Source: Bacteroidales bacterium
GTDB taxonomy: Bacteria; Bacteroidota; Bacteroidia; Bacteroidales; UBA10428
Assembly (NCBI GenBank): GCA_016935435.1
Contig: JAFGQZ010000043.1
Span: 16,530-80,529, forward strand
DNA: 64,000 bases
Direction: 5' to 3'
The notes beneath the pieces were generated by a model. It saw only the letters and a list, made by a program, of their open reading frames with translations. It did not search any database and was not told the origin of the DNA. The position numbers and the translations under genes were made by a program. Positions 15,040-54,037 of this stretch are shown piece after piece (within the stretch, counting starts at the first letter, position 1; each line of letters starts with the position of its first letter).

Positions 15040-15376
15040 TTCTAAATTTTACAATTCCTTTTTTTATGAGCATAACCACGTTACGAATATTAATATCGCG
15101 CGGGCAAACCAGCGTACACTTGCCACAGAGCATGCATTTATCGATTTCGCGGGCGAGGCTTTCAATATCGCACCGGCGCAGAAAAAGGTTTATTTTTCGC
15201 ACATTGAAGTCGATAAGGTTACCGGCGCTGCAAGTGGCTGTGCAGCCTCCGCAGGAAATACAGGTAAGGAACGAAGCCTCGTTTTCGAGAACATAACCTA
15301 ACAGGCGGTTGTCGAGCTCCCCAAAATTAACAGTGCGGGTTTCCATAACCGAAAAGCCAAATTTGCCCATTTGCAT
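15032..15376 (-). CDS. Small HdrC-like 4Fe-4S dicluster protein
   Basis: 114 aa; CISCGGCTATC and CMLCGKCTLVCP; TAATG coupling to the upstream gene. Confidence 0.85.
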   Translation of the reverse strand: MQMGKFGFSVMETRTVNFGELDNRLLGYVLENEASFLTCISCGGCTATCSAGNLIDFNVRKINLFLRRCDIESLAREIDKCMLCGKCTLVCPRDINIRNVVMLIKKGIVKFRNE

Positions 15377-36752: not shown

Positions 36753-37667
36753 TTAGTAGCTTTTTGGAAAAATATCGGCCAAAGCTTTTTTTAGCGAGGG
36801 AAACAAAAAATGGTACCCCGACTGCATAATTTTATCGGGCGATACACGGCTGCCATTCAATAATATGCTGGCCATTTCGCCGAATATGGCCTTCAATATG
36901 AATGCCGGTATGGCAGGCAGCCAGAATGGCTTCCTTAGCGAAATGGCAAGGGTTTTCATAAACAGCTTGTTGGAAACGTACTCGGGGGCAACTGCGTTAA
37001 TTGCCCCAAAAAGCATTTCGTCGTTAACGGCCTTCAGATAAATTCTGCATAAATCGTCAATATGTATCCAGGGAATATATTGTTTTCCGGTTCCTAATGC
37101 AGCACCAAGCCCCAGCTTAACAGGGGCTGCCATTTTCGACAAGGCGCCCCCTTGCGGGCTTAAAACAATTCCGGTGCGTATTTTTACAGTGCGCACGCCC
37201 AATTTTTCGAAGTTAGCAGCAGCAGATTCCCACTTATGGCATACATTCCCTGTAAAGTCGTTCGCTGACAAATTGGTTTCGTCGAAAACTTTGTTTGTGC
37301 TTATTGAGCCATAATAGCCAGTGGCCGATGCCGTAATAAATGCTTTAAGTTGGTGTTTGTTTTCTTTTATGGTTTTATAGATCAGATGGACCGATTTTAC
37401 CCTACTGTCGGTTATCTCCTGTTTTCTGGCTTTTGTCCATCGCTTCGCGCTTATGCCGGCACCGGCAAGATGAATGATGTAATCGGCATGCAGTACCATT
37501 TCGGTATTGATAATTCCTTTGTTTATATCCCAAAAATAAGAATCGGCCGTCACATTCCTTTTGTCGCGCGAACTAAAAACCACCACCCTGTAACCGTTGT
37601 CGCGTAGTATCTTTCTTAAATGGGTGCCCACCAGGCCGGTACCACCGGTAATTAAAATGGTTTCCAT
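36753..37667 (-). CDS. TIGR01777-family NAD-dependent epimerase/oxidoreductase
   Basis: ITGGTGLVG, IIHLAGAGI, ASATGYYG, RTGIVL, PWIHIDD. Confidence 0.92.
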   Translation of the reverse strand: METILITGGTGLVGTHLRKILRDNGYRVVVFSSRDKRNVTADSYFWDINKGIINTEMVLHADYIIHLAGAGISAKRWTKARKQEITDSRVKSVHLIYKTIKENKHQLKAFITASATGYYGSISTNKVFDETNLSANDFTGNVCHKWESAAANFEKLGVRTVKIRTGIVLSPQGGALSKMAAPVKLGLGAALGTGKQYIPWIHIDDLCRIYLKAVNDEMLFGAINAVAPEYVSNKLFMKTLAISLRKPFWLPAIPAFILKAIFGEMASILLNGSRVSPDKIMQSGYHFLFPSLKKALADIFPKSY

Positions 37668-41156: not shown

Positions 41157-41192
41157 CGAAGGGAATAAAAATGATTTTCAAGAATAGAGATT

Positions 41193-41335
41193 CAATCGTT
41201 TAGTTAACAATATTTCCTCACGCGCACCCCTTAATCCCCTAAAGGGAACAGCGCGTTTGAGGTTCCCCTTCAGGGGATTAAGGGGTGAGTGTAAGGGTTT
41301 CATCTATTACTTTTTTTCTTAACTAAACCACATTG
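41193..41335. mobile_element. MITE copy 1 (143 bp) with IS4-like terminal inverted repeats
   Basis: Ends CAAT--CGTTTAGTTAA / TTAACTAAACCACATTG; exact 10-bp flanking duplication AATAGAGATT at 41183-41192 and 41336-41345; internal perfect 16-bp stem. Confidence 0.9.
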
Positions 41336-41396
41336 AATAGAGATTGCAAAAGCTATGTTCCGCACTTTTTGGACAGCCCAAACAACAGTAAACAGT

Positions 41397-42323
41397 TTAA
41401 GGCAATGCAACAATTTCGCTGTCGCTGTTTATTTCAATAGGTATTTGCATCGACATGCCCTGGGCGTTTACACTCATTTCGCCTTTCATTTGTTGCTTGC
41501 TTGTGCCTTTAATAACCCATCCCGTAGAGGTGTCAACAGTGATTTCCGATTTGCCTACACCGCGGATATCGGGAATAATTTCAGCCCCGTGCATGTTCAT
41601 AGGTTTGCGGCCCGATTCAATAACTAAGTCACCGGCAATTTTTGCCTGGTTCCCATCTATAGCAGAAAGCAGAAAAGCCGAGGAAACATTCATGTCCATA
41701 CCGCCTGATGAAATAAGCAGGTTGGTTTCCCACTTTTCGTCCTTTTTTATTTCTTTACCGGGCAGGTAAGCTGTAACCGACTCAATCATGCTCTTAATTG
41801 CTCCGGGCTGTACCATGTTTTTTGCCTGGGTTTTAATAATTTCGGCCATAGGTCCCTGTACCGAATCGATTCCCTGCAAAATACCAGCAGAAGCTGTCTC
41901 TAAGTTCATAATTTCAATAACATGTCCGGTACCAGCAAATTTGACCAGAAAAGTGCTGTTGCTCAGTCGGTTCATAATACATTCCATAACTTTCGATATA
42001 TCAGACGAATTCAAATCGCCGGGGCGCGAAGAGTTTATTTCCATCGGGGGCATGCTAACAAGGGTAATAATGGTATCGAACCGCACTTCGGCAATAAAAG
42101 CACCCTCAATATTTTTTAAGGGTTTTAAAGATAACACCACCGAATTATTGGTCTGGACCGACTGTTGCATGCCCTGCACAGTTTGGGTTGTGTTTTGTAC
42201 ACTGGTGTTTTTTACACGGTAGGATTTTTGAATCTCGAGATTGTACTTTAAATCGGCCTGGTTTTGGGCCGTAAGGCTAAAAACAGAGAATAGCGCAAGG
42301 GATAATACGATAAGGTTTTTCAT
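41397..42323 (-). CDS. Secreted beta-rich hypothetical protein (DUF6263-like)
   Basis: 308 aa; signal peptide; LKYNLE...Q.V.G.Q pattern, W..G beta motifs. Confidence 0.6.
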   Translation of the reverse strand: MKNLIVLSLALFSVFSLTAQNQADLKYNLEIQKSYRVKNTSVQNTTQTVQGMQQSVQTNNSVVLSLKPLKNIEGAFIAEVRFDTIITLVSMPPMEINSSRPGDLNSSDISKVMECIMNRLSNSTFLVKFAGTGHVIEIMNLETASAGILQGIDSVQGPMAEIIKTQAKNMVQPGAIKSMIESVTAYLPGKEIKKDEKWETNLLISSGGMDMNVSSAFLLSAIDGNQAKIAGDLVIESGRKPMNMHGAEIIPDIRGVGKSEITVDTSTGWVIKGTSKQQMKGEMSVNAQGMSMQIPIEINSDSEIVALP

Positions 42324-42557
42324 AATATATGTTGTTTTAGGATTAAACAGTTAAACCAAAAAAAAATAATAATTGAGCCTTTCAACGACTGTTTTCGACA
42401 GCCTTTTAAAGCCATATTTTCAGCAAGTGTCATACCTTGCAATACATCTATTGCCAGAAAAGGAGTTTATAAAACTTTCCATTAAACAGGCTATCGGGCA
42501 TTTATTGTACAAATATACTCAATAGCTTGAAAAACAAGCACGTTGCAGAAAAAAAAT

Positions 42558-43043
42558 CTACATCCGGTTTTGTCCTGGTTTTTTTTCGTGAATATAGCCA
42601 ATAATTCTTTGGACACACCCATCAAAGTCTTCTTTAAGCCCCTTTTCCCAAAAACGCATTACATGCCAGCCATTATCAATGAGTAATTGGTTGTTCTGCT
42701 TGTCGCGCTGCATGTTCCTTTCGATTTTTGGTACCCAGAAAGCACGGTTGGTTTGGATTTTTTCTTTCTTCTCCTGCCAGTTAAATCCATGCCAGAACTC
42801 ACCATCTACAAATATTGCCAGTTTGTATTTTGGATATACAATATCTGGCTTTCCGGGCAAAGAAGTTAAATTTTTTCTATACCGGTAACCAAGTGCCCAA
42901 AGCGCCCTTCTTAGCTTTAACTCTTGCTTTGTATTTTTAGACTTAATTTTTCGCATAAGCCCCGATCGCTGCTTTGTAGTGTAAAAGCCATTTTTTTCAT
43001 TAAACCTGGGCACAACTATATGATTGTCTGAATATTGCTTCAA
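42558..43043 (-). CDS. vsr: Very short patch repair endonuclease
   Basis: RSGLMRKIKSKNT, LPGKPDI, FVDGEFWHG, FWVPKIERNMQRD, GWHVMRFWE; adjacent to a C5 methyltransferase. Confidence 0.95.
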   Translation of the reverse strand: MKQYSDNHIVVPRFNEKNGFYTTKQRSGLMRKIKSKNTKQELKLRRALWALGYRYRKNLTSLPGKPDIVYPKYKLAIFVDGEFWHGFNWQEKKEKIQTNRAFWVPKIERNMQRDKQNNQLLIDNGWHVMRFWEKGLKEDFDGCVQRIIGYIHEKKPGQNRM

Positions 43044-43103
43044 AATTAATAATTGTTAATAATTAAAAGGCCAAATTAGGCTATTATGATTAATAAATAA
43101 AAC

Positions 43104-43144
43104 TAATTTTGTAACCATGTGTAATGTTGTTTAATGTGGTTACA
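43104..43144 (+). promoter_or_regulatory. MTase promoter with an overlapping inverted repeat (candidate autoregulatory operator)
   Basis: TAATTTTG at 43104-43111; TGTAACCA-N19-TGGTTACA at 43110-43144. Confidence 0.55.
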
Positions 43145-43146
43145 TA

Positions 43147-44379
43147 ATGGAAAAACTATATTCAATCTCGGAAGTTGCAGATTTACTTTCTGTTAGCAAA
43201 GAAACCCTGAGGCGCTGGGACAAAAGCGGGAAACTGACAGCAGTACGTGAGCCCATGAGTAATTATCGTGCTTATCGAAAGGATCAGCTTAAGATTTTTG
43301 AAAGCCTTGATTTTCTCTTTGCCCCAACAGAGGAAAATAATGAAACAATTGCAAACAGGGATTTTAACGCTATTGAATTATTTGCCGGGGCAGGCGGGCT
43401 GGCTATTGGGTTAGAAGAAGCAGGAATAAAGTGTTTGGCCCTGAATGAATTTGATCATTGGGCTTGCGAAACCCTTAGAAAAAACAAACCCAATTGGAAC
43501 GTTATTGAGGATGATGTTAAAAACATTTCATTTTCACAGCTAAACGGAAAAGTGGATATTGTAACCGGAGGCTTTCCTTGCCAGGCTTTTAGCTATGCCG
43601 GCAAAAAATTAGGGCTTAACGATGCACGGGGCACTTTGTTTTATGAATTTGCAAGGGTAGTGCAGGAGACAAACCCTGCAATTTTTATTGGGGAAAATGT
43701 GCGCGGTTTGCTCACACATGAAAATGGCAGGACGATAGAAGGCATGATTTCTATATTGGATGAAATTGGGTACAACGTAATAACCCCACGAATTTTTAAA
43801 ACAATCTTTTATAAAGTCCCGCAAAAAAGGGAAAGGGTTTTAATTGTTGGTGTAAGAAAAGATTTAAACCATCATTTGTTTGAATTCCCAAAACCCTATA
43901 AGAAAGTTTACACACTAAAAGATGCCTTAAAAAAAGGCGAATTGTATAATTGTGATGTTCCTGAATCGGCAGGCTCAAAATATCCCAAAAGCAAGAAAGA
44001 AGTGTTAGACCTGGTTCCTGAAGGAGGATATTGGAGAGATTTGCCCATTGAGATACAAAAGCGTTACATGGGAGGCAGTTACCATTTAGGAGGGGGCAAA
44101 ACTGGAATGGCAAGACGGATGAGCTGGGCAGAACCAAGCTTGACCCTCACTTGCAGCCCTGCCCAGAAACAAACAGAGCGTTGCCACCCGGAAGAAACAA
44201 GGCCCTTTACAGTAAGGGAATATGCAAGGATACAAACATTTCCCGACAGTTGGGTTTTTGCTGGCTCCGTATCGCAACAATACAAACAAATAGGCAATGC
44301 GGTGCCTGTTAATTTTGCTAAAGAAGTCGGATATTCAATTATTCGGTTCTTAAATAAGGTTTATCCTAAACAGAACTGA
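43147..44379 (+). CDS. dcm: Type II DNA (cytosine-5)-methyltransferase with an N-terminal MerR/excisionase-like HTH (Eco47II/Sau96I-like)
   Basis: SISEVADLLSVSKETLRRWD HTH; LFAGAGG, GGFPCQ, ENV, QKRER, QIGNAVP. Confidence 0.93.
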   Translation: MEKLYSISEVADLLSVSKETLRRWDKSGKLTAVREPMSNYRAYRKDQLKIFESLDFLFAPTEENNETIANRDFNAIELFAGAGGLAIGLEEAGIKCLALNEFDHWACETLRKNKPNWNVIEDDVKNISFSQLNGKVDIVTGGFPCQAFSYAGKKLGLNDARGTLFYEFARVVQETNPAIFIGENVRGLLTHENGRTIEGMISILDEIGYNVITPRIFKTIFYKVPQKRERVLIVGVRKDLNHHLFEFPKPYKKVYTLKDALKKGELYNCDVPESAGSKYPKSKKEVLDLVPEGGYWRDLPIEIQKRYMGGSYHLGGGKTGMARRMSWAEPSLTLTCSPAQKQTERCHPEETRPFTVREYARIQTFPDSWVFAGSVSQQYKQIGNAVPVNFAKEVGYSIIRFLNKVYPKQN

Positions 44380-44477
44380 TTTTTTCAGTTCAATAAATGA
44401 AATTCATATATAGAACAGGTTAAGGCTTAAAATATTTTTTATTTTTATGGTTTGTTTTCACATAAACCTTTAAGCCA

Positions 44478-45188
44478 ATGCCCTATTTAAATTGGATCCC
44501 AGATACAGGCCTGATTCATGAAGTAACACAATTGCTTTATATCGCTAAAAGCGCCCAAATATCGGCTATAAAGGAATTTGGCAAAAATGTAATTGACCCG
44601 TTTGCTGCCCTTTTTGAGATGTCGGGCTTTGAAATTGACTATACTACCTGGTTAAACAGCGAAACAACAAGACAGGCACAGAAAACACTACAAAACCATA
44701 TCGGCGACTTCCATCAAAACATACTTGGATATTCAAAAGACTGGACAAATAAGGGTGTAGGCAATATAATTGACTTGTTGTCGGATAAAAACAAGGTAAT
44801 AGCAGAAATTAAAAATAAATATAACACCATTTCGGGCGGAAAACTTTCCGATTTGTACTATTCCTTAGAAAAACAGGTAAGCCCAAAATCGAGCATTTAT
44901 AAGGGTTACACAGCATTTTATGTTGCAATTATACCTAAAAAGGGCGACCGGTACAATAAACCATTTACCCCTTCGGACAAGGACAAAGGCGAAAAATGCC
45001 CGGTAAATGAGCTCATCAGGGAAATTGACGGAGCAAGCTTTTACAGCCTGGTAACAGGTTCCGATACAGCTTTGGAAGATTTGTTCAACGTTTTGCCCGA
45101 TGTGGTAAAAGCATGTTCTGAGGATAAATATGTTATTAAAGACAAGAAAAAACTCAAAGAATTCTTTAACCTCGCCTATAAGCTTTAA
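44478..45188 (+). CDS. Type II restriction endonuclease, Eco47II family (predicted GGNCC)
   Basis: KNVIDPF, RQAQK...IGDFHQNI, IAEIKNKYNT; directly downstream of the C5 MTase. Confidence 0.8.
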   Translation: MPYLNWIPDTGLIHEVTQLLYIAKSAQISAIKEFGKNVIDPFAALFEMSGFEIDYTTWLNSETTRQAQKTLQNHIGDFHQNILGYSKDWTNKGVGNIIDLLSDKNKVIAEIKNKYNTISGGKLSDLYYSLEKQVSPKSSIYKGYTAFYVAIIPKKGDRYNKPFTPSDKDKGEKCPVNELIREIDGASFYSLVTGSDTALEDLFNVLPDVVKACSEDKYVIKDKKKLKEFFNLAYKL

Positions 45189-45189
45189 T

Positions 45190-48100
45190 TTAATCCCATA
45201 CCTCAACCACCTTCATGTTGGTATTAGCATTCACTACCGGTACATACATTAACGAAACCTGTGCCGGGTTCAGGTGATATTTGCCTGTAAAACGGGGCAA
45301 TAGGTTAACCTGGAAAATGTATTTGCCGGTTTTCATATTTTCGCAGAACAGTACTGTGCGGTCGCTGAAATATTCGCGATGGGTTTCTACACTGTTTTGT
45401 GCCTGTCGCTTGTCGGCATAGCTGCATGCCCCGGGTATGGGCACTTCTATCATAACATGCTCGGCGCCTGCATCTTTAATAACTTCCACCTCAATATTAA
45501 GCACAACGGGTTCTCCGGCTTTTAGCTTGTTGCTTCCCGAAAGAAAGGAAGTATGTATTTTAAACCCTTCAACCCCGGTTTTTGCCTGTGTAACCCTTTC
45601 GTTGGTGTACTGAACGAAATAGAGCGGAACGCCACTGCTTTTATACACACTTAGTTTCTCCTTTTCTTTCAGAACCATGCGAAAAGGGAATTCCGATACT
45701 GTTTTGTTTTCTTTTCCAGCAAGGGCTACAGTCGCTACCTGTCTTTTTGACGATCGCCCGGCAATTATGTCGGGCAAGATACATTGAATTATATTGGCCG
45801 ACTGGTATGTGTTCCATGTACCATTTTTTCGCTGGCCCAGGAAATACAGCTGCATGGAAGCGCGCAAACCATGCAGGAGAGTGTCGTTCTTTATTAACCG
45901 GTAGGCAGCTGCATTGGCCAAAAGTGTATTGTTGTGCCAATATGCCGATGGCTTGTTGTCGGAGAAAAAGATTTCGCCTAATATCCCTTCTTTTCTGTAT
46001 TTCAGAAGGCTGTCGCGTTCATAACCGTTCGCGGTTATCTGCCGTATTTCCTGCAGCATTAATTTCTCGGTAAGCAAAGAATACCTGTATTCATATTTTT
46101 GGCCATACGCATCGGAGAAAAATTCCTTTTCCAAAAGAAGCGAGTCCATCACCTGCAGATACTCGCCATAGTCTATTGCAGCGCCCCAGGTGGCCAATGA
46201 ATGAAGCAAATCGATATCGTAAATCGAGAACGATTTCAGGAAATCGAACTGGTAAGTCGCTTTCCGGGCAATGTTTTCGATGTTCAGAGGGACATCGTAA
46301 CCGGCATCTTTGGCACATTTTAATGCCCGGAGAATATGGGCTGACATCCAATGCGAAGTATTGCCCGTAACATTCCACCACGACCATAAAAACTCCCGGT
46401 TCTGGTTTTTCAGCAAGCGTTTAACAATATCGTTCACGTTTTTGTCGTATTTAAACGCCTTGCCTTCGTATTGCATCAAAAGCTTATAATTAATTAAGCC
46501 TACGAGTTTTGAGGCAAGCTGTTCGTTACAATCGTAACGGTAATGAAGCAGGTTATATGCCTCCCCTGCATAAATATCGAGCTGGCTGCTCAATATTTCA
46601 ACAGTAAGTGTTGTGTTTTCAGGTGCTTCGATATGCAGGCTGTCGCCATTTTGCAATACAGAAAGCGAACCTTCGGCCCTTTCGGTGCCCTGCTCAATTA
46701 CCCTGACGGTGCGTTCTTCGCCATCGGTATAGCCATCGTTGCGGGTAAATACATAACGTGTGGTAATTGAGTCGGCAGTTGCTGCATAAACCGGCAGTTT
46801 ATCGGTGCGATACTGCCCGAAAGCAACATTTCGAACAAAAGCATTGCCTGTACCGCTCCAGTTTACCGTTCCGGAAATTGTGCTGTCGGTAGTATAGTTT
46901 AACAATTTCCCCAGGAAAAAGGCCGAATCGCCCCTTGCAAGGAAGTTAGGAACATGGAGTTCTGCCATAAGTGGCTTGTACGATTTTATGGTCTTGCGTG
47001 CCGTGCCGGTATGAAGGTTGCGGTTCATGGCGTAAACTAAAGCGTCCCAGCGGGTAATATCATCGGGAAAGGTTACTGTAAATTTCGATTCGCCTTTTCT
47101 GTCGGTATATAAGCGTGGCTCCCAAAAGCCTACATCGGAAAACGACGATCGGATACTTTTTAGGTTCAGCAGTTCCTGGTAAAGCCTGTTTTCGGCATCG
47201 GTATCGGTTATATCTGTTGTTTTAGTTTCTTCATCCATTATGTCGGGAGCAATGCTGCTTTCGCCACTAACCCTCGAAACGGCTCCTGTTAGCATACTTT
47301 TATGTTGTACGCCATAACCGATTACAACAACCTCTTCGAGGGCAGAAATGTCGGGGGTCATCGACAACATTACTTCAGAACCTGCCGAAACTTCAATTTC
47401 TTCCATTAAATAACCGATAAAAGAAACCACCAGGGTTGCCGTAAAATCATCAATTTGCAGCGAGAAGCGGCCATCGATGTCGGTAATTGTTCCTTTCTGT
47501 GTCCCTTTTATTACAATACATGCTCCCGGCAGGGGATCATTGTTCTCATCGAAAATAATGCCGCGTATATTTCCCGGGCTGCTTGCCTGGATATATTCGT
47601 ACCTTGGCGAGGGTTTATTATCTGTGGCGTTACTGTAACAATTGTAATTTCGCCCCGGAAGGTTGAGCACCAATCGCGATGAAAACGTATCGGGCCGACA
47701 AATGGGCAAATAACCAAAGTCGGCAACCAGGGTTGAATGCCTGCTTATATCTACACTGTCCATTTGCAAATATGTGCCATTGTTGTATAAAACAATAATT
47801 CTGTAAAAACCCCGGGGCAAGGCGAAAAATTCGAGTTTGCTTTGATACTGGTTGTCGAAACAGGGCGACAGTATTGCTTTGCTCTCACAATTTTGAAAAT
47901 ACAGGTTGAATACCCCTTTGCCGGTAACCTCTTGGGGCAGTATAATTTTTATTCTCGATTCCGGGGCCACAATATCGATGGTTTGTGGCTGCCATATAAT
48001 GCCACCTGAAGCTTGCCGTTCAAGAAAGCGTTTTTTGTTCATAACCCGGTCGTTCACATTCAGCATGGGGTTGAATGGTTTGCCATCCAAATACCCAGGC

Positions 48101-50718
48101 AAAAGGTTCGAAGCCGTGAGCTTATACACAATATTGTCTTCAAAAGCATAAGAAAACCCTCCTGTATGGGTGTAAACTATCTGGTATGAGCCATTCAGGG
48201 AATATGTTTTCTTCCCCTGTAGTGAGGGGCCAATACTTAAGGTACCATAACTAGTGTACTTATTGTTATAAACATTATACAGTGGCAGAAACTCTTTTTC
48301 CGATTCCAGCCAGGCATAGCTGCCGTTGGAATAATTTACCGATGACATTAGAGGTTTGTAGCGGTTTCGCTCAACAGGGGTCAGTTGGTTCGAAAGCTTA
48401 ATTTCCTGAGAATATTTTTTCAGGCTGTTCATATCAAAACTAATAACGGTTTTCTTTCCTGCTTCGAACATCAAAGAGTCGAGCACAACAACCCTGTCGT
48501 TTAGCCGCAGGCTTATAGAATGTTTCTGGTTGGGGGAAATATAAAACGAATATTCTTTTGGCCTGTTGGCCCATGAAAAATATACGGGGTTGCGATCGAC
48601 TTCAATTACATAAATTGGAACGGCCATACCATTTTGCATAATGTAGGGGGCAAACTGGGTACTGTCGTTACTATCGAAAAGATAAACAAACGGCTCCCTG
48701 CCCGGATAGGTAAACTGGTAATAAATCATGGTGTCGAGCTGAAAGAGGTTATGCCATTTTTGGTAGTTTAGCTTAATAACTGCGGATCGGGAGTTTATGT
48801 CGTTTTTGGTAAAATGTGCACTTTTTGGCCGCGGTATCGAACTGCTTCCATAGTAGGGCAGGTCGGGCAAGTGGTAGTTAAGCTTACCGGTAACCGCCAA
48901 AGCAGTAAGATCGACCCCACTAACCGGATTTCCCAGCTGGTTGGTAACACGTATTTCCGCATCGATGGTTTGGCCGGGGTAAACCTTATCGGGAACGTTG
49001 AGGGTAACATCCAGGAACTCTTCCCTGAAAACAAAAGGGAAACGCTTTATTTGATCCTGTCCCCCGAAAGTGTAAATAAGTTCAACGTAATAAGTTTTCA
49101 GCCTGTTTTCTATGAGCGAACGAAATTCAAACTCTTTGCCAAAACCCTTCTTTAAAAGTTCCGCTCCCTGGTAAACATACCACGAAACATCGAGTTGATG
49201 AGGGTTAATGAGCGATATGTTAAAACTGTCTTTTTGTATTCCACCCGATAATTCAATTTTGGGGCTTATATGGGCCAGGTTAAAAATGCCTGATTTATAA
49301 TAACAGCTAAGCTTTATTGATGAAACCAGTGGGTTTATTTTTTCTTTATAAGGGAAAACTATGGCAAAACTGTCGGGATTGTTGTTGTAAGCAATACAGC
49401 CCGGCACATTTGTTAATGGTTCGCCGTTTTTTATGATGTCGAAACATATACTGTCGTTTGAAAGTTTGTTTATTAGTTCGTACTGCGAATAGAAAAAATC
49501 TGCCGAAACAGTTTGCTCCATGCGTTGGTACTGAGTGTTGAGCACAACCACCTGCACTTCGTACCCGGTATTCGACATCTGGAATAAACCAGGAAGAATT
49601 TCAACCGTGGTAGGTTTTGCCGGATCGAGATCGATTTGAAAATAACTCAATGTGTCGGGCAGTATGATAAGGGGCTGAAAAGTTTTTGAAATGTTCCTGG
49701 TGCGCACCAGAATAAAAGCTTTCGCATCTTTGAGCAACAATCCGTTTATGTCGGTTGCTGTAATGGTAATTTCGTTTTTTGCCGGAAAATAGTGTTTTGT
49801 GTTGGTTATCTGAACATTGAGTTTATTGCCGGTAAGTTCATAATCTTCGTACATAAAACTGCAATTTGAAACCATCTTACCGTTTTTTTCGCGCAATTGA
49901 AGGTTGTATGTCTTGTCCAGCACAAGATTAAGCGAATCGTGCAATTGTAATTCCCCGGCATAGCTGCCCGGCCTGTGGGGCTTTATCTTGTTGAGTTTAA
50001 TGTTTTTTTTATACCCCGACACCCATACTTCAAGCTCACGGCGCAGGGGAAATTTATTGCCCGACAATGCATACGATTTGAACCGCAACATATCGTTTGG
50101 CCTGTATTTGTTCTTGTCGGTAATTAAGTAACTATAGAACGAAGGGCTTTGGTAGTGGCTGTATGCGCTATGCCATTCCGGCACATCGTGCTTTACAATC
50201 TGGAACACCGACCGGAAACCGTCAAGTTCAACAGTTGCAAATTGATTTTTTGCATTGATCCACTCGTTTTCGAGCCTGTAAGTTTTGCTTTCGGGGTCAG
50301 GGCGCAGGCGTTTATATTTAAGTTTTACTTTTGCATCGGTGCGCACATTCCCACTGAAATCGGTTACCTGCAACGAAAGTGCCCCATATTCCCTGAACAG
50401 GAAAACCTGGTATGGAAAAACTCCCGTATAGGAGCAATGCAGCTTGTTCCCTTCAACCTTTACCAAAACAAAATGCCCTTTCGGGCAATGGTTTATCCAT
50501 CCTTTTTCAACTTCGAACGAATCGACCAGGTTATACAATAAACCATCGAAAACAGTATCGGGTTTTGCCCTTGTTAGTAACTTTTGTGCTTCTTTGTTTG
50601 TGATTTGAAAAACCAGTCCTTTTTGAGGTGCATTGCCCCAGTTAACCGGCTGGGAAAAAGAACTTAGGTGAATAAGAATAATATACCCTGCTGCAAATAT
50701 TCTGGAAATAGTTTTCAT
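45190..50718 (-). CDS. Bacterial alpha-2-macroglobulin family protein with an inserted carboxypeptidase-regulatory-like (SusC N-terminal) domain
   Basis: 1842 aa; TDKNKYRP (MG2), FWEPRLYTD..FPDDITRW (A2M), CNEQ thioester motif at 46519-46530, C-terminal EVPIPG/REYFSDR. Confidence 0.88.
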   Translation of the reverse strand: MKTISRIFAAGYIILIHLSSFSQPVNWGNAPQKGLVFQITNKEAQKLLTRAKPDTVFDGLLYNLVDSFEVEKGWINHCPKGHFVLVKVEGNKLHCSYTGVFPYQVFLFREYGALSLQVTDFSGNVRTDAKVKLKYKRLRPDPESKTYRLENEWINAKNQFATVELDGFRSVFQIVKHDVPEWHSAYSHYQSPSFYSYLITDKNKYRPNDMLRFKSYALSGNKFPLRRELEVWVSGYKKNIKLNKIKPHRPGSYAGELQLHDSLNLVLDKTYNLQLREKNGKMVSNCSFMYEDYELTGNKLNVQITNTKHYFPAKNEITITATDINGLLLKDAKAFILVRTRNISKTFQPLIILPDTLSYFQIDLDPAKPTTVEILPGLFQMSNTGYEVQVVVLNTQYQRMEQTVSADFFYSQYELINKLSNDSICFDIIKNGEPLTNVPGCIAYNNNPDSFAIVFPYKEKINPLVSSIKLSCYYKSGIFNLAHISPKIELSGGIQKDSFNISLINPHQLDVSWYVYQGAELLKKGFGKEFEFRSLIENRLKTYYVELIYTFGGQDQIKRFPFVFREEFLDVTLNVPDKVYPGQTIDAEIRVTNQLGNPVSGVDLTALAVTGKLNYHLPDLPYYGSSSIPRPKSAHFTKNDINSRSAVIKLNYQKWHNLFQLDTMIYYQFTYPGREPFVYLFDSNDSTQFAPYIMQNGMAVPIYVIEVDRNPVYFSWANRPKEYSFYISPNQKHSISLRLNDRVVVLDSLMFEAGKKTVISFDMNSLKKYSQEIKLSNQLTPVERNRYKPLMSSVNYSNGSYAWLESEKEFLPLYNVYNNKYTSYGTLSIGPSLQGKKTYSLNGSYQIVYTHTGGFSYAFEDNIVYKLTASNLLPGYLDGKPFNPMLNVNDRVMNKKRFLERQASGGIIWQPQTIDIVAPESRIKIILPQEVTGKGVFNLYFQNCESKAILSPCFDNQYQSKLEFFALPRGFYRIIVLYNNGTYLQMDSVDISRHSTLVADFGYLPICRPDTFSSRLVLNLPGRNYNCYSNATDNKPSPRYEYIQASSPGNIRGIIFDENNDPLPGACIVIKGTQKGTITDIDGRFSLQIDDFTATLVVSFIGYLMEEIEVSAGSEVMLSMTPDISALEEVVVIGYGVQHKSMLTGAVSRVSGESSIAPDIMDEETKTTDITDTDAENRLYQELLNLKSIRSSFSDVGFWEPRLYTDRKGESKFTVTFPDDITRWDALVYAMNRNLHTGTARKTIKSYKPLMAELHVPNFLARGDSAFFLGKLLNYTTDSTISGTVNWSGTGNAFVRNVAFGQYRTDKLPVYAATADSITTRYVFTRNDGYTDGEERTVRVIEQGTERAEGSLSVLQNGDSLHIEAPENTTLTVEILSSQLDIYAGEAYNLLHYRYDCNEQLASKLVGLINYKLLMQYEGKAFKYDKNVNDIVKRLLKNQNREFLWSWWNVTGNTSHWMSAHILRALKCAKDAGYDVPLNIENIARKATYQFDFLKSFSIYDIDLLHSLATWGAAIDYGEYLQVMDSLLLEKEFFSDAYGQKYEYRYSLLTEKLMLQEIRQITANGYERDSLLKYRKEGILGEIFFSDNKPSAYWHNNTLLANAAAYRLIKNDTLLHGLRASMQLYFLGQRKNGTWNTYQSANIIQCILPDIIAGRSSKRQVATVALAGKENKTVSEFPFRMVLKEKEKLSVYKSSGVPLYFVQYTNERVTQAKTGVEGFKIHTSFLSGSNKLKAGEPVVLNIEVEVIKDAGAEHVMIEVPIPGACSYADKRQAQNSVETHREYFSDRTVLFCENMKTGKYIFQVNLLPRFTGKYHLNPAQVSLMYVPVVNANTNMKVVEVWD

Positions 50719-50861
50719 GATTGCCGTTTTGTATCTGACAATTTTAAAAAAACAGCCCCCTAAAAACCGATGTTTTTTTTTAGTTTGTGCCTGACCCCTG
50801 AGTTATTAAGGCGTTTTTGCATCTTTGCGAAAAGCAGCCTTACAGATATATGTCGGGTTTT

Positions 50862-51509
50862 TTAAAAAGCGTAACCTAACGACAGCATTAGGGTAAAAGT
50901 ATCATCGGTAATTTCGCCGGCTGTCCTAAGCAGGCTTTCGTTCCATTCAGCTATTTTACTGAAATTCAGGTAGTAGTCGCCTTTCAGCCCTATCTGAATT
51001 TTGGAAATGTTTAACTTAATACCAGCTCCGAACAAGAGCCCATAGGCAATTTTTTTCAGTTCATCGTTTTTTTCCAAATAAGAAAAATCATCGCTGTGCC
51101 CAATCAAAAAATCTATCCTTGGGCCTCCGCAAATAAAGGGCAACACCTGTTCGGAAAGCGGATAATTAAAATCGATGGCAGTGTTAAAAGACAGGTAATT
51201 GAGAGTTGGTTTGTCAACAATTGTCTGGCCTGTGAATATGCCCCAGGGATCGGATAACTCTGATTCGGACTTTCCACCTTTCTGAAGGTAACCAATATTG
51301 GTTGTAAGGTTGTAGTTGCCATTCTTTAAATAATCAATCCCCAGAAAAAACGAGTTGCCTGTGAAGGCCATATCGTATAACTGATCATTGGTTGTAGGAA
51401 TTTTCCAATCGAGTTTTGAAATGCTTGTACCCACCTGTAACTTTATAACCTGGGCATTTAATGAACAAAAAACTGATACAAAAATAATTGAGGCAAGTAT
51501 TTTTTTCAT
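50862..51509 (-). CDS. Outer-membrane beta-barrel protein (PorT-like)
   Basis: Signal peptide from MKKILAS, amphipathic strands, terminal LGYAF; track start 51533. Confidence 0.75.
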   Translation of the reverse strand: MKKILASIIFVSVFCSLNAQVIKLQVGTSISKLDWKIPTTNDQLYDMAFTGNSFFLGIDYLKNGNYNLTTNIGYLQKGGKSESELSDPWGIFTGQTIVDKPTLNYLSFNTAIDFNYPLSEQVLPFICGGPRIDFLIGHSDDFSYLEKNDELKKIAYGLLFGAGIKLNISKIQIGLKGDYYLNFSKIAEWNESLLRTAGEITDDTFTLMLSLGYAF

Positions 51510-51625
51510 TGTTATTGCAAATAAGTCAGACATGATTGTTTATTGGCCAAATATAAGAAATATTCTGCCCTTTGAATTCTGCCTGCCAGCGTTTTTTTAA
51601 CGCCGAATATATTATTTATTATAAG

Positions 51626-51742
51626 TGCAAACGAATGCCTTAAAAACTAACAATAATTACGTTGAAAGTCTTAATTAACAACTAAAAACATATTTTAGAT
51701 ACAAGCAAACGATTGCATAATTTGTAAAAATATTTATATTTG
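51626..51742 (+). promoter_or_regulatory. Promoter of the T9SS cargo gene with two LacI/GalR-like operator candidates
   Basis: TTG 51713-51715, 19-nt gap, TATATTTG 51735-51742; TGCAAACGAATGC at 51626-51638 and AGCAAACGATTGCA at 51704-51717. Confidence 0.55.
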
Positions 51743-51840
51743 CATAACTGTTTTTCTCGCATTTTATAGAACAATACGGTTAAAAAAAGTCAGCCTTGCA
51801 AAATAGGCAGGCAAACAACAATTGATAAAACAATTTTACC

Positions 51841-52893
51841 ATGAAAAAAATCTACCCATTGATTCTGGCAACAATGTTTTGTACACAGCTTTTTGCCCAG
51901 AAAAGTATTTTATTTGTTAGCGCAAATGCGCCCGATGCCGATGCCACTATCCAAAAATTTATCGAACAAATTGAATCGATAGAAGGCTTTAGTGTAACCC
52001 ATAAACTTTTAGCCGACTACAAGCTTATGACTGCTGCCGAATTTGGGGCATTTGATGCGGCAGTTTTATCTGAGAACGGGGGCTCGGCCGATTATGTTAC
52101 GATAGGCAACGAAGGTTGGCCCATTGCGGTATTAAACCTGAAATCGTACATGAACCACAGGCCAACCAGTCCGCTTTATGCTGCCCAGGCCGATGTTGAC
52201 TGGTTTTTACACCGGACTTATGATATTGCTGCCGGTGCTTTGACTATGTATGTTGAAAACAACAACGATATTCTTTGTAATTATACCGAGGGCTCCGAAC
52301 TTGTGTGGTCAACCGGTACCGACGGCACCCCTTCCATAACCGATGCCCACTGCCAGACTTTCAACCTCGAAAAATCAACAGTAACCGATGTTGCCGGAAA
52401 TGCTATTTTGTTGGGGTCGATAAAAGAATTGAAAGACGGGGGCGAAAATACTTCGGCATTTCTCTGGAAAATAAACGAAAACAATACAACCAAACGAACT
52501 GTTTTATGGGGCATTCACCATGGCTTTATCGGAGAAGGGAATGCTACCGCCGATTTCTGGAAGGTGATCAAAAACTCAATTGTTTGGTTAACCGGCGGAT
52601 CGCCCTGCTCATCGACCGCACTAAAACCAGTTTTGGAAGAAACCAATGATATTACGGTATTTTGTTCATCGATTTCTAAATATGCCTCTGTTAACTTTAA
52701 ACTGAATGTACCGCAAACCTCTAACATTCAGGTAATGGATATTTCCGGAAAAATTGTTTATAGTCAGCTTTTAAATGGCAATGCCGGCTCGAACGAAATA
52801 TCCTTTAGCACCAATAGCTTTGCATGCGGCTTATATATTGTTAAACTAAGTGCAGGACACCAGATACTGACAGAAAAATTCATAGTACGATAG
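51841..52893 (+). CDS. T9SS type A sorting domain-containing protein, N-terminal domain unknown
   Basis: Signal peptide; C-terminal VMDISGK...GLYIVKL...TEKFIVR. Confidence 0.85.
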   Translation: MKKIYPLILATMFCTQLFAQKSILFVSANAPDADATIQKFIEQIESIEGFSVTHKLLADYKLMTAAEFGAFDAAVLSENGGSADYVTIGNEGWPIAVLNLKSYMNHRPTSPLYAAQADVDWFLHRTYDIAAGALTMYVENNNDILCNYTEGSELVWSTGTDGTPSITDAHCQTFNLEKSTVTDVAGNAILLGSIKELKDGGENTSAFLWKINENNTTKRTVLWGIHHGFIGEGNATADFWKVIKNSIVWLTGGSPCSSTALKPVLEETNDITVFCSSISKYASVNFKLNVPQTSNIQVMDISGKIVYSQLLNGNAGSNEISFSTNSFACGLYIVKLSAGHQILTEKFIVR

Positions 52894-52963
52894 AGTAAGA
52901 TTAGGATTAGTTGTGATTAGTTGTGGTTACTATTGGAAAAAATAGTACAGGATACAATTAGTT

Positions 52964-53005
52964 AAAAACGCTGTCTGATATACATTTAGGCAGCGTTTTC
53001 TTTTT
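52964..53005. terminator. Rho-independent terminator, probably bidirectional
   Basis: AAAACGCTGTCT...AGGCAGCGTTTT 12-bp stem with flanking A and T runs, between convergent genes. Confidence 0.8.
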
Positions 53006-53023
53006 ATTGCCAAACACGGGTAA

Positions 53024-53288
53024 TTAGGTTGTGGTTGAGAAGGGGTAAATGAAGGAAATGAAGGGAATTAATGAATGAAGGGAATGAAAGAAATGAAGTG
53101 AATTCATGAATGATAAAAATGATTTTTTCAACTGTTCACCGTTCATTGCTCACTTTAAACTTTAAACTTAAAACTTTGAACTTTAAACTTTGAACTTTGA
53201 ACTTTGAACTTTGAACTTTGAACTTTGAACTTTGAACTTTGAACTTTGAACTTTGAACTTTGAACTTTAAACTTTGAACTTAAAACCT
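53024..53288 (-). repeat. Composite dispersed repeat, copy 3 (18 heptamers), inverted orientation
   Basis: 18 TRAACTT-type units at 53156-53281, reverse-complement core at 53119-53155, GAAATGAAG-type 9-mers, GGTTGTGGTTGAG end. Confidence 0.92.
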
Positions 53289-53708
53289 TTCCCATTCCTC
53301 AATATTGCCCTCAGTAGCAGTAAACATGGGGTGGGGGAGAAGCTCTTTTAACGAAATTAGTTTGGAGTATTTTTCAGTATCCCTTGTTTGGAGTTTTTTC
53401 AACAGGTGTTCACGCTCAAAACGAAGCTGACCGGTCGTTACATTCATTTTTACAGGAGAAAACTTATAGTTAATTTTTTCTTTATCGAAACTATAACCAC
53501 GCTTCAGCGCTTCGTAATATACATCGGTTAAATACTGGTTTATTGCTTCAACAGGCTTTTGCACCGATTTAAACCTTTCGAGCTGCGGATGGTTTTTATA
53601 CCCCTTAGTGTTGCCTTCCAGGACATTTTTTGCCAACAGGGTTTCGCGCCACAATGCTACCAAGCCTTTTGTGTCGAGATAACACGGATGAACTGACCAT
53701 ATTCTCAT
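53280..53708 (-). CDS. Pyrimidine dimer DNA glycosylase / endonuclease V family
   Basis: MRIWSVHPCYLDTKGLVALWRE, GYKNHPQLERF. Confidence 0.9.
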   Translation of the reverse strand: MRIWSVHPCYLDTKGLVALWRETLLAKNVLEGNTKGYKNHPQLERFKSVQKPVEAINQYLTDVYYEALKRGYSFDKEKINYKFSPVKMNVTTGQLRFEREHLLKKLQTRDTEKYSKLISLKELLPHPMFTATEGNIEEWERF

Positions 53709-53860
53709 TTCAGGGCGAATAAAATTTAACAGTTATAACCCTGATTCCCAAAAAATGTTTAAATTGATTCGAAATGCATTAACGGTTTTATTGCCGGAAA
53801 TATAAACAGCAAAGTATGTGCAGTTTTTATGGTGCTTAAATAAATTAATAAAACAGAATT

Positions 53861-54005
53861 TAATGTCGTTTAGTTAACAGTATTTCCGCACGCTCACCCT
53901 TAAATTCCCTAAAGGGAACAGCGCGTTTGGTTTTCCCCTTCAGGGGATTATGGGGTGTGTGAAAGGGTTTCATGTATTACATTTTTTCTTAACTAAACGA
54001 CATTG
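53861..54005. mobile_element. MITE copy 2 (145 bp)
   Basis: TAATGTCGTTTAGTTAA / TTAACTAAACGACATTG (16 of 17 bp inverted match); exact 10-bp duplication AAACAGAATT at 53851-53860 and 54006-54015; about 88% identical to copy 1 by hand alignment. Confidence 0.92.
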
Positions 54006-54037
54006 AAACAGAATTCTTAAATTTTAAAAATAAAATT

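What the first reader, a model, noticed from the sequence alone, without database searches (positions are those of the whole stretch)
41183..54015. New-looking MITE family with IS4-type ends, 10-bp target duplications and a GC-rich internal hairpin
Seen: two copies, 41193-41335 (143 bp) and 53861-54005 (145 bp), about 88% identical (16 substitutions and a 2-bp gap by hand). The terminal inverted repeat consensus is YAATGTCGTTTAGTTAA. Each copy is flanked by a different exact 10-bp direct repeat (AATAGAGATT; AAACAGAATT), both of form AA-N6-TT, which directly shows independent transposition events. Copy 1 holds a perfect 16-bp stem (CACCCCTTAATCCCCT / AGGGGATTAAGGGGTG) extended by an imperfect GGGAAC/GTTCCC stem; the stem is eroded in copy 2. 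Established, from memory and needing a check: E. coli IS4 ends read TAATGCCGATCAGTTAAG and IS4-subgroup elements make 10-13 bp duplications. There is no transposase in the window. Inference: a non-autonomous IS4-subgroup derivative mobilised in trans, with the internal palindrome as passenger or functional RNA structure.
Basis: partly seen in the sequence, partly recalled or inferred. Interest (0 to 1): 0.72.

Follow-up and report, generated by a model that had tools for sequence, protein, structure and literature searches.

The report
IS4-type miniature transposon with hairpin core
The two 143-145-base repeats are copies of a gene-less miniature transposon (MITE) whose ends match an IS4-family insertion sequence common in Bacteroidota, so this is ordinary mobile DNA; the one unusual point is that its central hairpin also occurs inside unrelated miniature transposons.

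Summary
Both copies sit at the stated coordinates, are about 89% identical, and each is flanked by its own exact 10-bp duplication.

- **Copy number:** the genome is a 3.9-Mb, 107-contig Bacteroidales MAG. It holds 14 complete copies plus about 15 contig-end fragments, in four subfamilies. Nine of 12 complete copies tested have 9/10 or better flank matches.
- **Transposase:** none is in the assembly. A 1467-bp IS in a same-family genome has perfect 18-bp ends, CAATGTCGTTTAGTTAAG, identical to the MITE ends, and makes a 10-bp duplication. It encodes a DDE/YREK IS4-family transposase.
- **IS4-subgroup criteria:** the published criteria for ends, size and duplication length are all met.
- **Spread:** the 18-mer is found across Bacteroidota and flanks dozens of unrelated MITE interiors.

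- Copy 1's perfect 16-bp stem is derived, not ancestral. Three substitutions fix exactly the three imperfect pairs of the family consensus.
- The hairpin shows no covariation and no orientation bias, so an RNA function is unsupported.
- The ~77-nt core also occurs in MITEs with other ends, in 22 of 201 genomes of the order, and is not linked to Y1 transposases.

Verdict: a new member of a known kind, of modest interest.

The parts
41183..41192 (.). Target-site duplication of copy 1, left copy (AATAGAGATT)
   Evidence: Identical 10-mer at 41336-41345
41193..41335 (+). MITE copy 1, subfamily A, 143 bp
   Evidence: Its closest relative is the C68 copy
41193..41208 (+). Left terminal inverted repeat of copy 1 (CAATCGTTTAGTTAAC). 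It lacks 2 bases (GT) of the consensus CAATGTCGTTTAGTTAA
   Evidence: Alignment of copies
41218..41295 (+). Palindromic core module of copy 1. The perfect 16-bp arms lie at 41225-41240 and 41272-41287, and the inner stem is GGGAAC/GTTCCC
   Evidence: Fold. Covariance-model hit at C72:57747-57824, 82 bits. The perfect stem is unique to this copy
41318..41335 (-). Right terminal inverted repeat of copy 1 (reads CAATGTGGTTTAGTTAAG on the minus strand, 1 mismatch)
41336..41345 (.). Target-site duplication of copy 1, right copy (AATAGAGATT)
53851..53860 (.). Target-site duplication of copy 2, left copy (AAACAGAATT)
53861..54005 (+). MITE copy 2, subfamily A, 145 bp, both ends intact
53861..53878 (+). 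Left terminal inverted repeat of copy 2 (TAATGTCGTTTAGTTAAC)
53888..53965 (+). Palindromic core module of copy 2, carrying the family-typical imperfect stem
   Evidence: Covariance-model hit at C72:70417-70494, 86 bits. Fold
53988..54005 (-). Right terminal inverted repeat of copy 2 (CAATGTCGTTTAGTTAAG on the minus strand). It is identical to both ends of the full-length IS in G030
54006..54015 (.). Target-site duplication of copy 2, right copy (AAACAGAATT)

Best explanation
[quoted passage not shown] Its only transposon-derived parts are the 17-18-bp ends, (C/T)AATGTCGTTTAGTTAA(G/C).

**Shown:** these ends are those of a lineage of IS4-family insertion sequences widespread in Bacteroidota. 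The lineage matches the published IS4-subgroup features: about 1.46-1.48 kb, a DDE/YREK transposase, and a 10-bp duplication.

**Inferred mechanism:** such a transposase, supplied in trans, binds the two ends and excises the element by the cut-and-paste chemistry known for IS4-family enzymes. It then reinserts the element across a 10-bp staggered cut, and repair of that cut gives the 10-bp direct repeats.

**The element in this genus:** it has spread and diversified, here into four subfamilies totalling 14 complete copies plus about 15 contig-end fragments. No transposase is in this assembly, so the copies are probably stranded at present. Copy 1 in addition has a damaged left end.

**The centre:** the GC-rich middle is a passenger module, independent of the ends. 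It is a ~77-nt imperfect palindrome made of two inverted ACCCC-N5-CCCCTNNAGGGG units. Its sequence boxes are conserved, but nothing indicates that it acts as an RNA.

**Copy 1's stem:** the perfect 16-bp stem arose secondarily. The most likely route is templated correction of the imperfect palindrome by strand switching during replication.
For: **1. Independent insertions.** Each complete copy has a different 10-bp flank. Of 12 tested, 5 are exact and 4 are 9/10, against a chance rate of 8e-5 for 9/10 or better. All 14 complete copies are intergenic.

**2. Autonomous partner.**
- G030:C84 is a 1467-bp contig that begins and ends with the perfect 18-mer CAATGTCGTTTAGTTAAG. It carries one ORF that hits NCBIfam transpos_IS4_1 at 142.7 bits (cut-off 115) and Pfam DDE_Tnp_1.
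- That ORF aligns with E. coli InsG at E=1e-12, including the D, D and Y-x2-R-x3-E-x6-K motifs.
- Its insertion between two G030 contigs shows the duplication AATTATGAAT.
- A 1479-bp copy with an exact 10-bp duplication lies in a complete Prolixibacteraceae chromosome.

**3. Same-genus support.** Same-genus genome G003 has an intact 445-aa homologue in a ~1.44-kb IS. Its end variant, CAATGTCATTAAGTTAAG, is the same variant carried by G003's own MITE copies. So MITE ends and IS ends co-vary.

**4. IS4-subgroup fit.** The criteria in PMC2266710 Table 1 are 1400-1650 bp, ends -AATR--------WTW, YREK present, and DR 10-13 bp. All are met.

**5. Abundance of the end.** The exact 18-mer is in more than 120 stretches of species-representative genomes, nearly all Bacteroidota. 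Among them are 55 MITE-size pairs of 75-372 bp, of which 23 have exact 10-bp duplications, and 3 IS-size pairs.

**6. The core is separable from the ends.** Only 1 of those 54 MITE-bearing loci has the core. Conversely, the core occurs with other ends in this genome and in 22 of 201 genomes of the order.

**7. Copy 1's stem is derived.** Its three differences from its nearest relative in the left arm fall exactly on the three non-Watson-Crick positions of the consensus.
Against: - No transposase of this family, nor any PF01609 or PF13006 hit, is in the window's own assembly. Mobilisation in trans in this organism is therefore inferred, not shown. The assembly is a 93.5%-complete MAG, so an IS could simply be missing.
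- Only the ~18-bp ends are shared with the IS, so descent from that IS by internal deletion is not shown.
- An exact empty site could not be demonstrated. Orthologous intergenic regions in two congeners lack the element but are too diverged to show the single 10-mer.
- Assignment to the IS4 subgroup rests on ends, size, duplication length and motifs, not on a transposase phylogeny or ISfinder.
- Identity within subfamily A is only 82-95%, so activity may be old.
Confidence: 0.9

Rival explanations
1. The element is a REP/REPIN-like or palindrome-associated element moved as single-stranded DNA by a Y1 (HUH) transposase. On this view the inverted pair of palindromic units in the core is the real mobile part.
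For: The core is an inverted doublet of a ~22-nt unit that itself contains a palindrome, which resembles a REPIN. The genome has one Y1_Tnp gene. All 22 core-positive genomes of the order have Y1 genes, against 148 of 201 overall.
Against: Y1 transposases make no target duplication, whereas the copies here have 10-bp duplications outside IS4-type ends. The genome's Y1 gene is not flanked by the unit. No unit or core hit lies within about 900 bp of any of 17 further Y1 genes sampled in 9 other core-positive genomes. There are only about 30 units in the genome, mostly inside MITEs.
Confidence: 0.03
2. The repeats are copies of a structured non-coding RNA gene or cis-regulatory RNA such as a terminator, stabiliser or riboswitch-like leader. 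On this view the terminal repeats are merely the base of a long stem.
For: The predicted folds are very stable, with z-scores of -6.9 to -9.4. Both window copies lie 22-26 bp upstream of a start codon. The stem boxes are conserved across species.
Against: No Rfam family reaches threshold; the only hits are sub-threshold generic hairpin matches. The covariation term is about zero (-0.14), and the stems are conserved as sequence rather than through compensatory change. Orientation relative to co-directional flanking genes is 5 sense to 5 antisense. Different 10-bp duplications and a matching IS explain the ends directly.
Confidence: 0.04
3. The element is a simple internal-deletion derivative of an IS resident in this genome (a 'type I' MITE) rather than a chimera of IS ends and foreign interior.
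For: Many bacterial MITEs arise this way. The A-rich stretch next to one MITE end loosely resembles the stretch after the left end of the G030 IS.
Against: Beyond about 18 bp the MITE shares nothing recognisable with the G030 or G003 IS. The same ends flank dozens of unrelated interiors. The interior occurs with other ends. There is no transposase remnant in the genome.
Confidence: 0.05

Closest known systems
E. coli IS4 and the IS4 subgroup of the IS4 family (De Palmenaer, Siguier and Mahillon 2008, PMC2266710)
   Same: The ends fit -AATR--------WTW. They match the K-12 IS4 ends at 14-15 of 18 positions. The target duplication of 10 bp lies in the subgroup range of 10-13. The partner IS is 1459-1479 bp, within the 1400-1650 range, and its transposase has DDE and YREK motifs.
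   Different: The transposase is only 22% identical to InsG. The host is Bacteroidota. The element in the window is a 143-145-bp gene-less derivative. Placement in the subgroup by transposase phylogeny or ISfinder was not done.
Bacterial MITEs in general (Correia/NEMIS of Neisseria, RUP of pneumococcus, Nezha of cyanobacteria; IS231-derived MIC231 within the IS4 family), from my own knowledge
   Same: Small, gene-less, multi-copy and intergenic. The terminal inverted repeats match those of an IS, the target duplication has the IS's length, the whole element folds into a long hairpin, and subfamilies differ by inserted modules.
   Different: The sequences are unrelated. Here the same ends flank many unrelated interiors, and the same interior sits between several unrelated kinds of ends.
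Porphyromonas gingivalis MITEs (BrickBuilt, MITE239, MITE464/PgRS, MITE700; PMC4596501)
   Same: MITEs of a Bacteroidales host, 10-20 copies per genome, with ends shared with resident IS elements.
   Different: Those carry IS5-type ends (GAGACC...) and short or variable duplications. They are not related to the present ends.
REP/BIME/REPIN elements with RAYT transposases
   Same: The core is an inverted doublet of a short palindromic unit and forms a long hairpin.
   Different: Low copy number, no flanked Y1 gene, and the whole element has 10-bp duplications.

Membership tests
[quoted passage not shown] | Short (well under 1 kb) and without coding capacity for a transposase | tested here: met
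   Copies are 142-211 bp. No long ORF spans any of the 14 complete copies.
[quoted passage not shown] | Terminal inverted repeats | tested here: met
   17-18-bp ends (C/T)AATGTCGTTTAGTTAA(G/C) on both sides.
[quoted passage not shown] | Target-site duplications that differ between copies | tested here: met
   Of 12 copies, 5 are exact and 4 are 9/10, all with different sequences. Chance of 9/10 or better is 8e-5.
[quoted passage not shown] | Multiple dispersed copies in the genome | tested here: met
   14 complete copies and about 15 contig-end fragments on 25 contigs.
[quoted passage not shown] | An autonomous element with matching ends exists | tested here: met
   G030:C84 (1467 bp), L076 (1479 bp), L141 and L156. 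G003 holds a matching end variant. None is in the window's own assembly.
IS4 family, IS4 subgroup (PMC2266710 Table 1) | Conserved end pattern -AATR--------WTW | tested here: met
   In CAATGTCGTTTAGTTAAG, positions 2-5 are AATG and positions 14-16 are TTA.
IS4 family, IS4 subgroup (PMC2266710 Table 1) | Direct repeats of 10-13 bp | tested here: met
   10 bp for the MITE copies and for the G030 and L076 IS copies. The G003 IS copy shows 11 bp.
IS4 family, IS4 subgroup (PMC2266710 Table 1) | Autonomous element of 1400-1650 bp with a DDE transposase carrying the Y-(2)-R-(3)-E-(6)-K motif | tested here: met
   1459-1479 bp. PF01609 and NF033592 score above their cut-offs. The motif reads YHLRWNEEEGYKLLK and aligns with InsG YSHRWEIELGYREIK.
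IS4 family, IS4 subgroup (PMC2266710 Table 1) | Transposase groups with IS4-subgroup members in a phylogeny or in ISfinder classification | not tested
   ISfinder was not available. The 120 nearest database relatives are named at most 'IS4 family transposase'.
IS4 family, IS4 subgroup (PMC2266710 Table 1) | The MITE is actually bound and moved by such a transposase | not testable with these tools
   Needs a transposition assay.
REP/REPIN with RAYT | A single-copy Y1 transposase gene flanked by the repeat unit, and no target duplication | tested here: not met
   There is no unit near the genome's Y1 gene, nor near 17 further Y1 genes in 9 other core-positive genomes. 10-bp duplications are present.
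Any Rfam RNA family | Score at or above the family's gathering threshold | tested here: not met
   The best hit is 32.6 bits against a threshold of 100, to a generic miRNA-precursor hairpin model.

The most novel reading that the evidence does not exclude
The ~77-nt palindromic core may be a module that spreads or is retained independently of any one transposase. It consists of two inverted units, ACCCC-N5-CCCCTNNAGGGG ... CCCCTNNAGGGG-N5-GGGGT.

The core sits inside MITEs with at least four unrelated kinds of ends:
- IS4-type ends.
- GTCTC(T/A)GCAAGAAAAC ends, with duplications of about 6 bp.
- TGTCTCAAAAGT ends.
- TTTGACAG-type ends.

It occurs in multiple copies in 22 of 201 sampled genomes of the order, representing 20 genera. 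In contrast, the IS4-type ends usually carry other interiors.

On this reading the core is either an undescribed self-mobile hairpin element that lands in MITEs, or a cargo that makes very short MITEs better at transposing or persisting. One possible mechanism is extrusion as a cruciform that brings ends only about 145 bp apart together.
Probability: 0.25. Interest if true: 0.6.

Novelty: new member of a known kind. Interest (0 to 1): 0.3.

Why it matters
In itself this is routine annotation. It explains two intergenic repeats and about half of the contig breaks that end in this repeat. It also flags two genes, an outer-membrane beta-barrel gene and a lipocalin gene, whose upstream regions were displaced by about 155 bp.

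More broadly, it documents an IS4-subgroup lineage with a nearly invariant 18-bp end. That lineage has generated dozens of MITE families across Bacteroidota, apparently without being described in the literature available to me.

The combinatorial pairing of ends and hairpin cores gives a concrete system for asking how MITE interiors are acquired, and whether internal palindromes help very short elements transpose.

Tried and rejected
1. **Transposase in the own genome.** Searches with PF01609 and PF13006, and tblastn with the G030 transposase at E up to 10, found nothing.
2. **Exact empty-site test in 24 congeners.** Coding flanks match at only 66-76%. Synteny around copy 1 is kept in G004 and G019, and the element is absent there, but the intergenic DNA is too diverged to see the 10-mer. 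Copy 2's flanks are not syntenic in relatives.
4. **Rfam.** Only sub-threshold generic hairpin hits.
5. **RNA-structure support.** The covariation term is about zero, and orientation relative to flanking genes is unbiased.
6. **REPIN/RAYT or PATE origin of the core.** Y1 genes are common in the order (148 of 201 genomes), but none of the 18 inspected is near a unit.
7. **Literature search.** Searches for the terminal 16-mer, the core palindromes, and IS4-type MITEs of Bacteroidetes found nothing relevant. P. gingivalis MITEs have IS5-type ends.
8. **Dispersed small repeats.** The 33-nt insert of subfamily B and the extra insert of the C64 copy occur only inside these MITEs.
Full report
**Observation**

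They align at 88-89% identity.

Each is bracketed by an exact 10-bp direct repeat. Copy 1 has AATAGAGATT at 41183-41192 and 41336-41345. Copy 2 has AAACAGAATT at 53851-53860 and 54006-54015.

Copy 2 has intact ends, TAATGTCGTTTAGTTAAC on the left and CTTAACTAAACGACATTG on the right. Copy 1 lacks two bases (GT) in its left end and has one mismatch in its right end.

The end motif occurs 3 times in the window at 2 or fewer mismatches, against 0.12 expected from shuffles.

**Copy number and subfamilies**

The window lies in contig C72 of a 3.94-Mb, 107-contig, 41% G+C assembly that is 93.5% complete. BLASTN, an end-motif scan and an nhmmer profile of the core find 14 complete copies and about 15 fragments at contig ends. 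The repeat therefore breaks the assembly. One further complete copy lies 5 kb before the window, at C72:11185-11362.

The copies fall into four subfamilies:
- **A:** about 145 bp, includes both window copies.
- **B:** about 178 bp, which is A plus a 33-nt hairpin insert in the left arm. One B copy has a second insert and measures 211 bp.
- **C:** about 147 bp.
- **D:** a divergent group.

Pairwise identity is 82-95% within A and 86-96% within B.

**Evidence for transposition**

Of 12 complete copies tested, 5 have exact 10/10 flank matches and 4 have 9/10, each with a different sequence. Three of the exact ones were scored by script. The other two, C60 and C93:6142, were read by eye, because the script's boundaries were off by 1-2 bases there. 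Random positions 145 bp apart reach 9/10 or better at a frequency of 8e-5.

All 14 complete copies are intergenic.

Related copies at 71-78% identity, with their own 10-11-bp duplications, occur in two congeners, G003 and G023. Examples are ACCGCACGAT and ACCACCGTACG. The family has therefore moved in several species. In this genome the consensus is closer to AAWnnnGAWT.

**The autonomous partner**

The assembly has no DDE_Tnp_1 or Nterm_IS4 hit and no tblastn remnant of the relevant transposase.

In relatives, 22-25-nt matches to the MITE end recur at contig ends. In G030, which is in the same family but a different genus, contig C84 is exactly one element:
- It is 1467 bp long. It starts with CAATGTCGTTTAGTTAAG and ends with the perfect reverse complement.
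- Its single ORF hits NCBIfam transpos_IS4_1 at 142.7 bits (cut-off 115) and Pfam DDE_Tnp_1.
- The ORF aligns with E. coli InsG at 22% identity, E=1e-12. The alignment includes both Asp motifs and Y-x2-R-x3-E-x6-K (YHLRWNEEEGYKLLK).
- Joining the end of G030 contig C20 to the start of C27 shows the duplication AATTATGAAT.

Three more IS-size pairs were found. One is a 1479-bp copy with the exact duplication ATACAGGATA and a 391-aa ORF in a complete Prolixibacteraceae chromosome.

In same-genus genome G003, an intact 445-aa homologue sits in a ~1.44-kb IS. The ends of that IS carry the variant CAATGTCATTAAGTTAAG, which is the same variant found on G003's own MITE copies. Ends of MITE and IS therefore co-vary within a genome, as expected for a working pair.

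**Comparison with IS4**

I read the E. coli K-12 IS4 ends directly. They are TAATGCCGATCAGTTAAG and TAATGCCAGTCAGTTAAG, flanked by a 12-bp duplication.

Table 1 of De Palmenaer et al. 2008 (PMC2266710) defines the IS4 subgroup by four features: 1400-1650 bp, ends -AATR--------WTW, YREK present, and direct repeats of 10-13 bp. All four are met.

A transposase phylogeny and ISfinder classification were not available. The 120 nearest of 2785 related protein clusters are named at most 'IS4 family transposase'.

**Distribution of the ends**

Nearly all are labelled Bacteroidota: Bacteroidales, Cytophagales, Chitinophagales, Saprospiraceae, Sphingobacteriaceae and Flavobacteriales. From sequence length alone I estimate fewer than 20 chance matches in the whole collection; this is my own arithmetic, not a tool result.

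In those loci there are 55 MITE-size pairs of ends, 75-372 bp apart. Of these, 23 have exact 10-bp duplications and 11 have 9/10. Their interiors are mostly unrelated, as in the ~110-bp family of G043. Only one of the 54 loci holding such pairs contains this core.

**The internal hairpin**

Both copies fold far better than shuffles on either strand.

Across 19 diverse copies from six genomes, the conserved structure is three short stems: CAC.CCC/GGGGTG, TCCCT/GGGGA and AAGGG/CCCTT. The segment between the first two stems is not kept complementary. The covariation term is -0.14, which is effectively none.

The perfect 16-bp stem is unique to copy 1. Its nearest relative, C68, reads CACCCTTAAATTCCCT where copy 1 reads CACCCCTTAATCCCCT. 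The three substitutions fall on exactly the two G-T positions and the one A-A position of the consensus pairing. This is the signature of templated quasipalindrome correction, or of selection for pairing, and not of erosion in copy 2.

Three further results argue against an RNA function:
- No Rfam family is matched.
- For the ten copies between co-directional genes, orientation is 5 sense to 5 antisense.
- The T-run lies about 35 nt after the stem, so the element is not a canonical intrinsic terminator.

**The core as a separate module**

The core profile also finds elements with different ends in the same genome:
- A ~173-bp family with ends GTCTC(T/A)GCAAGAAAAC and duplications of about 6 bp, on C58, C25, C52, C3 and C74.
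- A third type on C42, with ends TGTCTCAAAAGT.

A covariance model of the core finds multiple copies in 22 of 201 sampled genomes of the order, from 20 genera. Their flanks are again different, for example TTTGACAG-type inverted repeats.

The shared unit is ACCCC-N5-CCCCTNNAGGGG, arranged as an inverted pair. This resembles a REPIN, so I tested a Y1-transposase link:
- The genome's one Y1 gene, next to trmD, has no unit nearby.
- Y1 genes occur in 148 of 201 genomes of the order and in all 22 core-positive ones.
- None of 17 further Y1 genes in 9 other core-positive genomes has a unit or core hit within about 900 bp.

That link is therefore not supported. How the core comes to sit between different ends remains open.

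**Context**

Copy 1 lies between a DUF6263 gene and an outer-membrane beta-barrel gene (CarboxypepD_reg plus OMP_b-brl_3), 26 bp before the latter's start codon. Copy 2 lies between a pyrimidine-dimer glycosylase gene and a lipocalin gene, 22 bp before the lipocalin start codon.

Seven of the 14 complete copies lie within 65 bp upstream of a start codon. Whether the element supplies or displaces promoters was not tested.

The orthologous intergenic region of copy 1 in congeners G004 and G019 has no such element. It is too diverged to show the single 10-mer.

**Verdict**

The element is an IS4-subgroup-type MITE, a new member of a known kind.

Earlier notes of this scan describe similar IS4-type MITEs in other Bacteroidota as ordinary. 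I treated them only as leads.

Noticed in passing
Own genome contigs C58:~1065-1235, C25:~37085-37250, C52:~161880-162060, C3:~5095-5240, C74:~15040-15200, C42:~2270-2420 (outside the window): Two further MITE-like families carry a homologous palindromic core but different ends. One has ends GTCTC(T/A)GCAAGAAAAC with flank repeats of about 6 bp. The other has ends TGTCTCAAAAGT.
   Followed up: partly
L193-L203 (G005, G160, G093, G183, G076, G090, G064, G100, G212, G232, G184): A covariance model of the core finds multi-copy inverted pairs of ACCCC-N5-CCCCTNNAGGGG in 22 of 201 genomes of the order, with varied flanks. None of the 18 Y1 transposase genes inspected is near one.
   Followed up: partly
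window 41225-41240 versus other subfamily-A copies (for example own genome C68:30780-30910): In copy 1, three clustered substitutions convert exactly the three non-Watson-Crick positions of the family's stem into perfect pairs. This looks like templated quasipalindrome correction.
   Followed up: yes
Own genome, flanks of copies on C93:25614-25760, C93:6142-6283, C64:1612-1822, C3:64519, C18:1-141, C101:15400, C53:10292: At least 7 of 29 copies abut heptamer microsatellites. Six of these are of the (GAATTGW)n type, of which only about 8 'AATTCAC'-class arrays exist genome-wide; the C53 copy abuts a GTTCAAA array. The G030 IS also sits in (TGAATTA)n. This suggests a target preference for such tracts.
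   Followed up: partly
window 41157-41192 and 54006-54037: Both window copies lie 22-26 bp upstream of a start codon, one before an outer-membrane beta-barrel gene and one before a lipocalin gene. Seven of 14 complete copies lie within 65 bp of a start codon. Promoter displacement or promoter supply was not examined.
   Followed up: no
L002 1380-1680 and L190 (G023:C25:~335400-338240): In congener G023 the MITE-derived sequence forms tandem arrays with a period of about 152 bp. In these arrays the left end is replaced by another segment.
   Followed up: no
L040 97-1449 (G030:C84): The transposase frame is open for 451 codons, but the first ATG/GTG/TTG is at codon 67. The upstream part looks like a genuine IS4-type N-terminus (..FTRVRKLAFKTLIIFLI..), so the start codon may be unusual or mutated in this copy.
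   Followed up: no
Own genome C53:44758-45099 (L171 1492-1926): A single 144-aa Y1_Tnp-like gene (HUH motif HIHIV) lies directly upstream of trmD. It has no flanking hairpin repeats and may be a domesticated or orphan Y1 gene.
   Followed up: partly
L010 (G010:C54:~10060-10260) versus own subfamily B copies: The 33-nt hairpin insert that defines subfamily B (..GAGATCGCT.GCTAAGTT..) is also present in a copy in another species of the genus. The insert therefore predates the species split. In the own genome it occurs only inside these MITEs.
   Followed up: partly
L083 (QFQQ01000031.1), L086 and L090 (WYBG01), L104 (JALSLW01), L141 (JAFGAC01): A few contigs carrying the exact 18-mer, some as MITEs with exact 10-bp duplications, come from MAGs labelled Citrobacter, Deltaproteobacteria, Methylomonas or Clostridiales. 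This could be mis-binning or transfer outside Bacteroidota.
   Followed up: no
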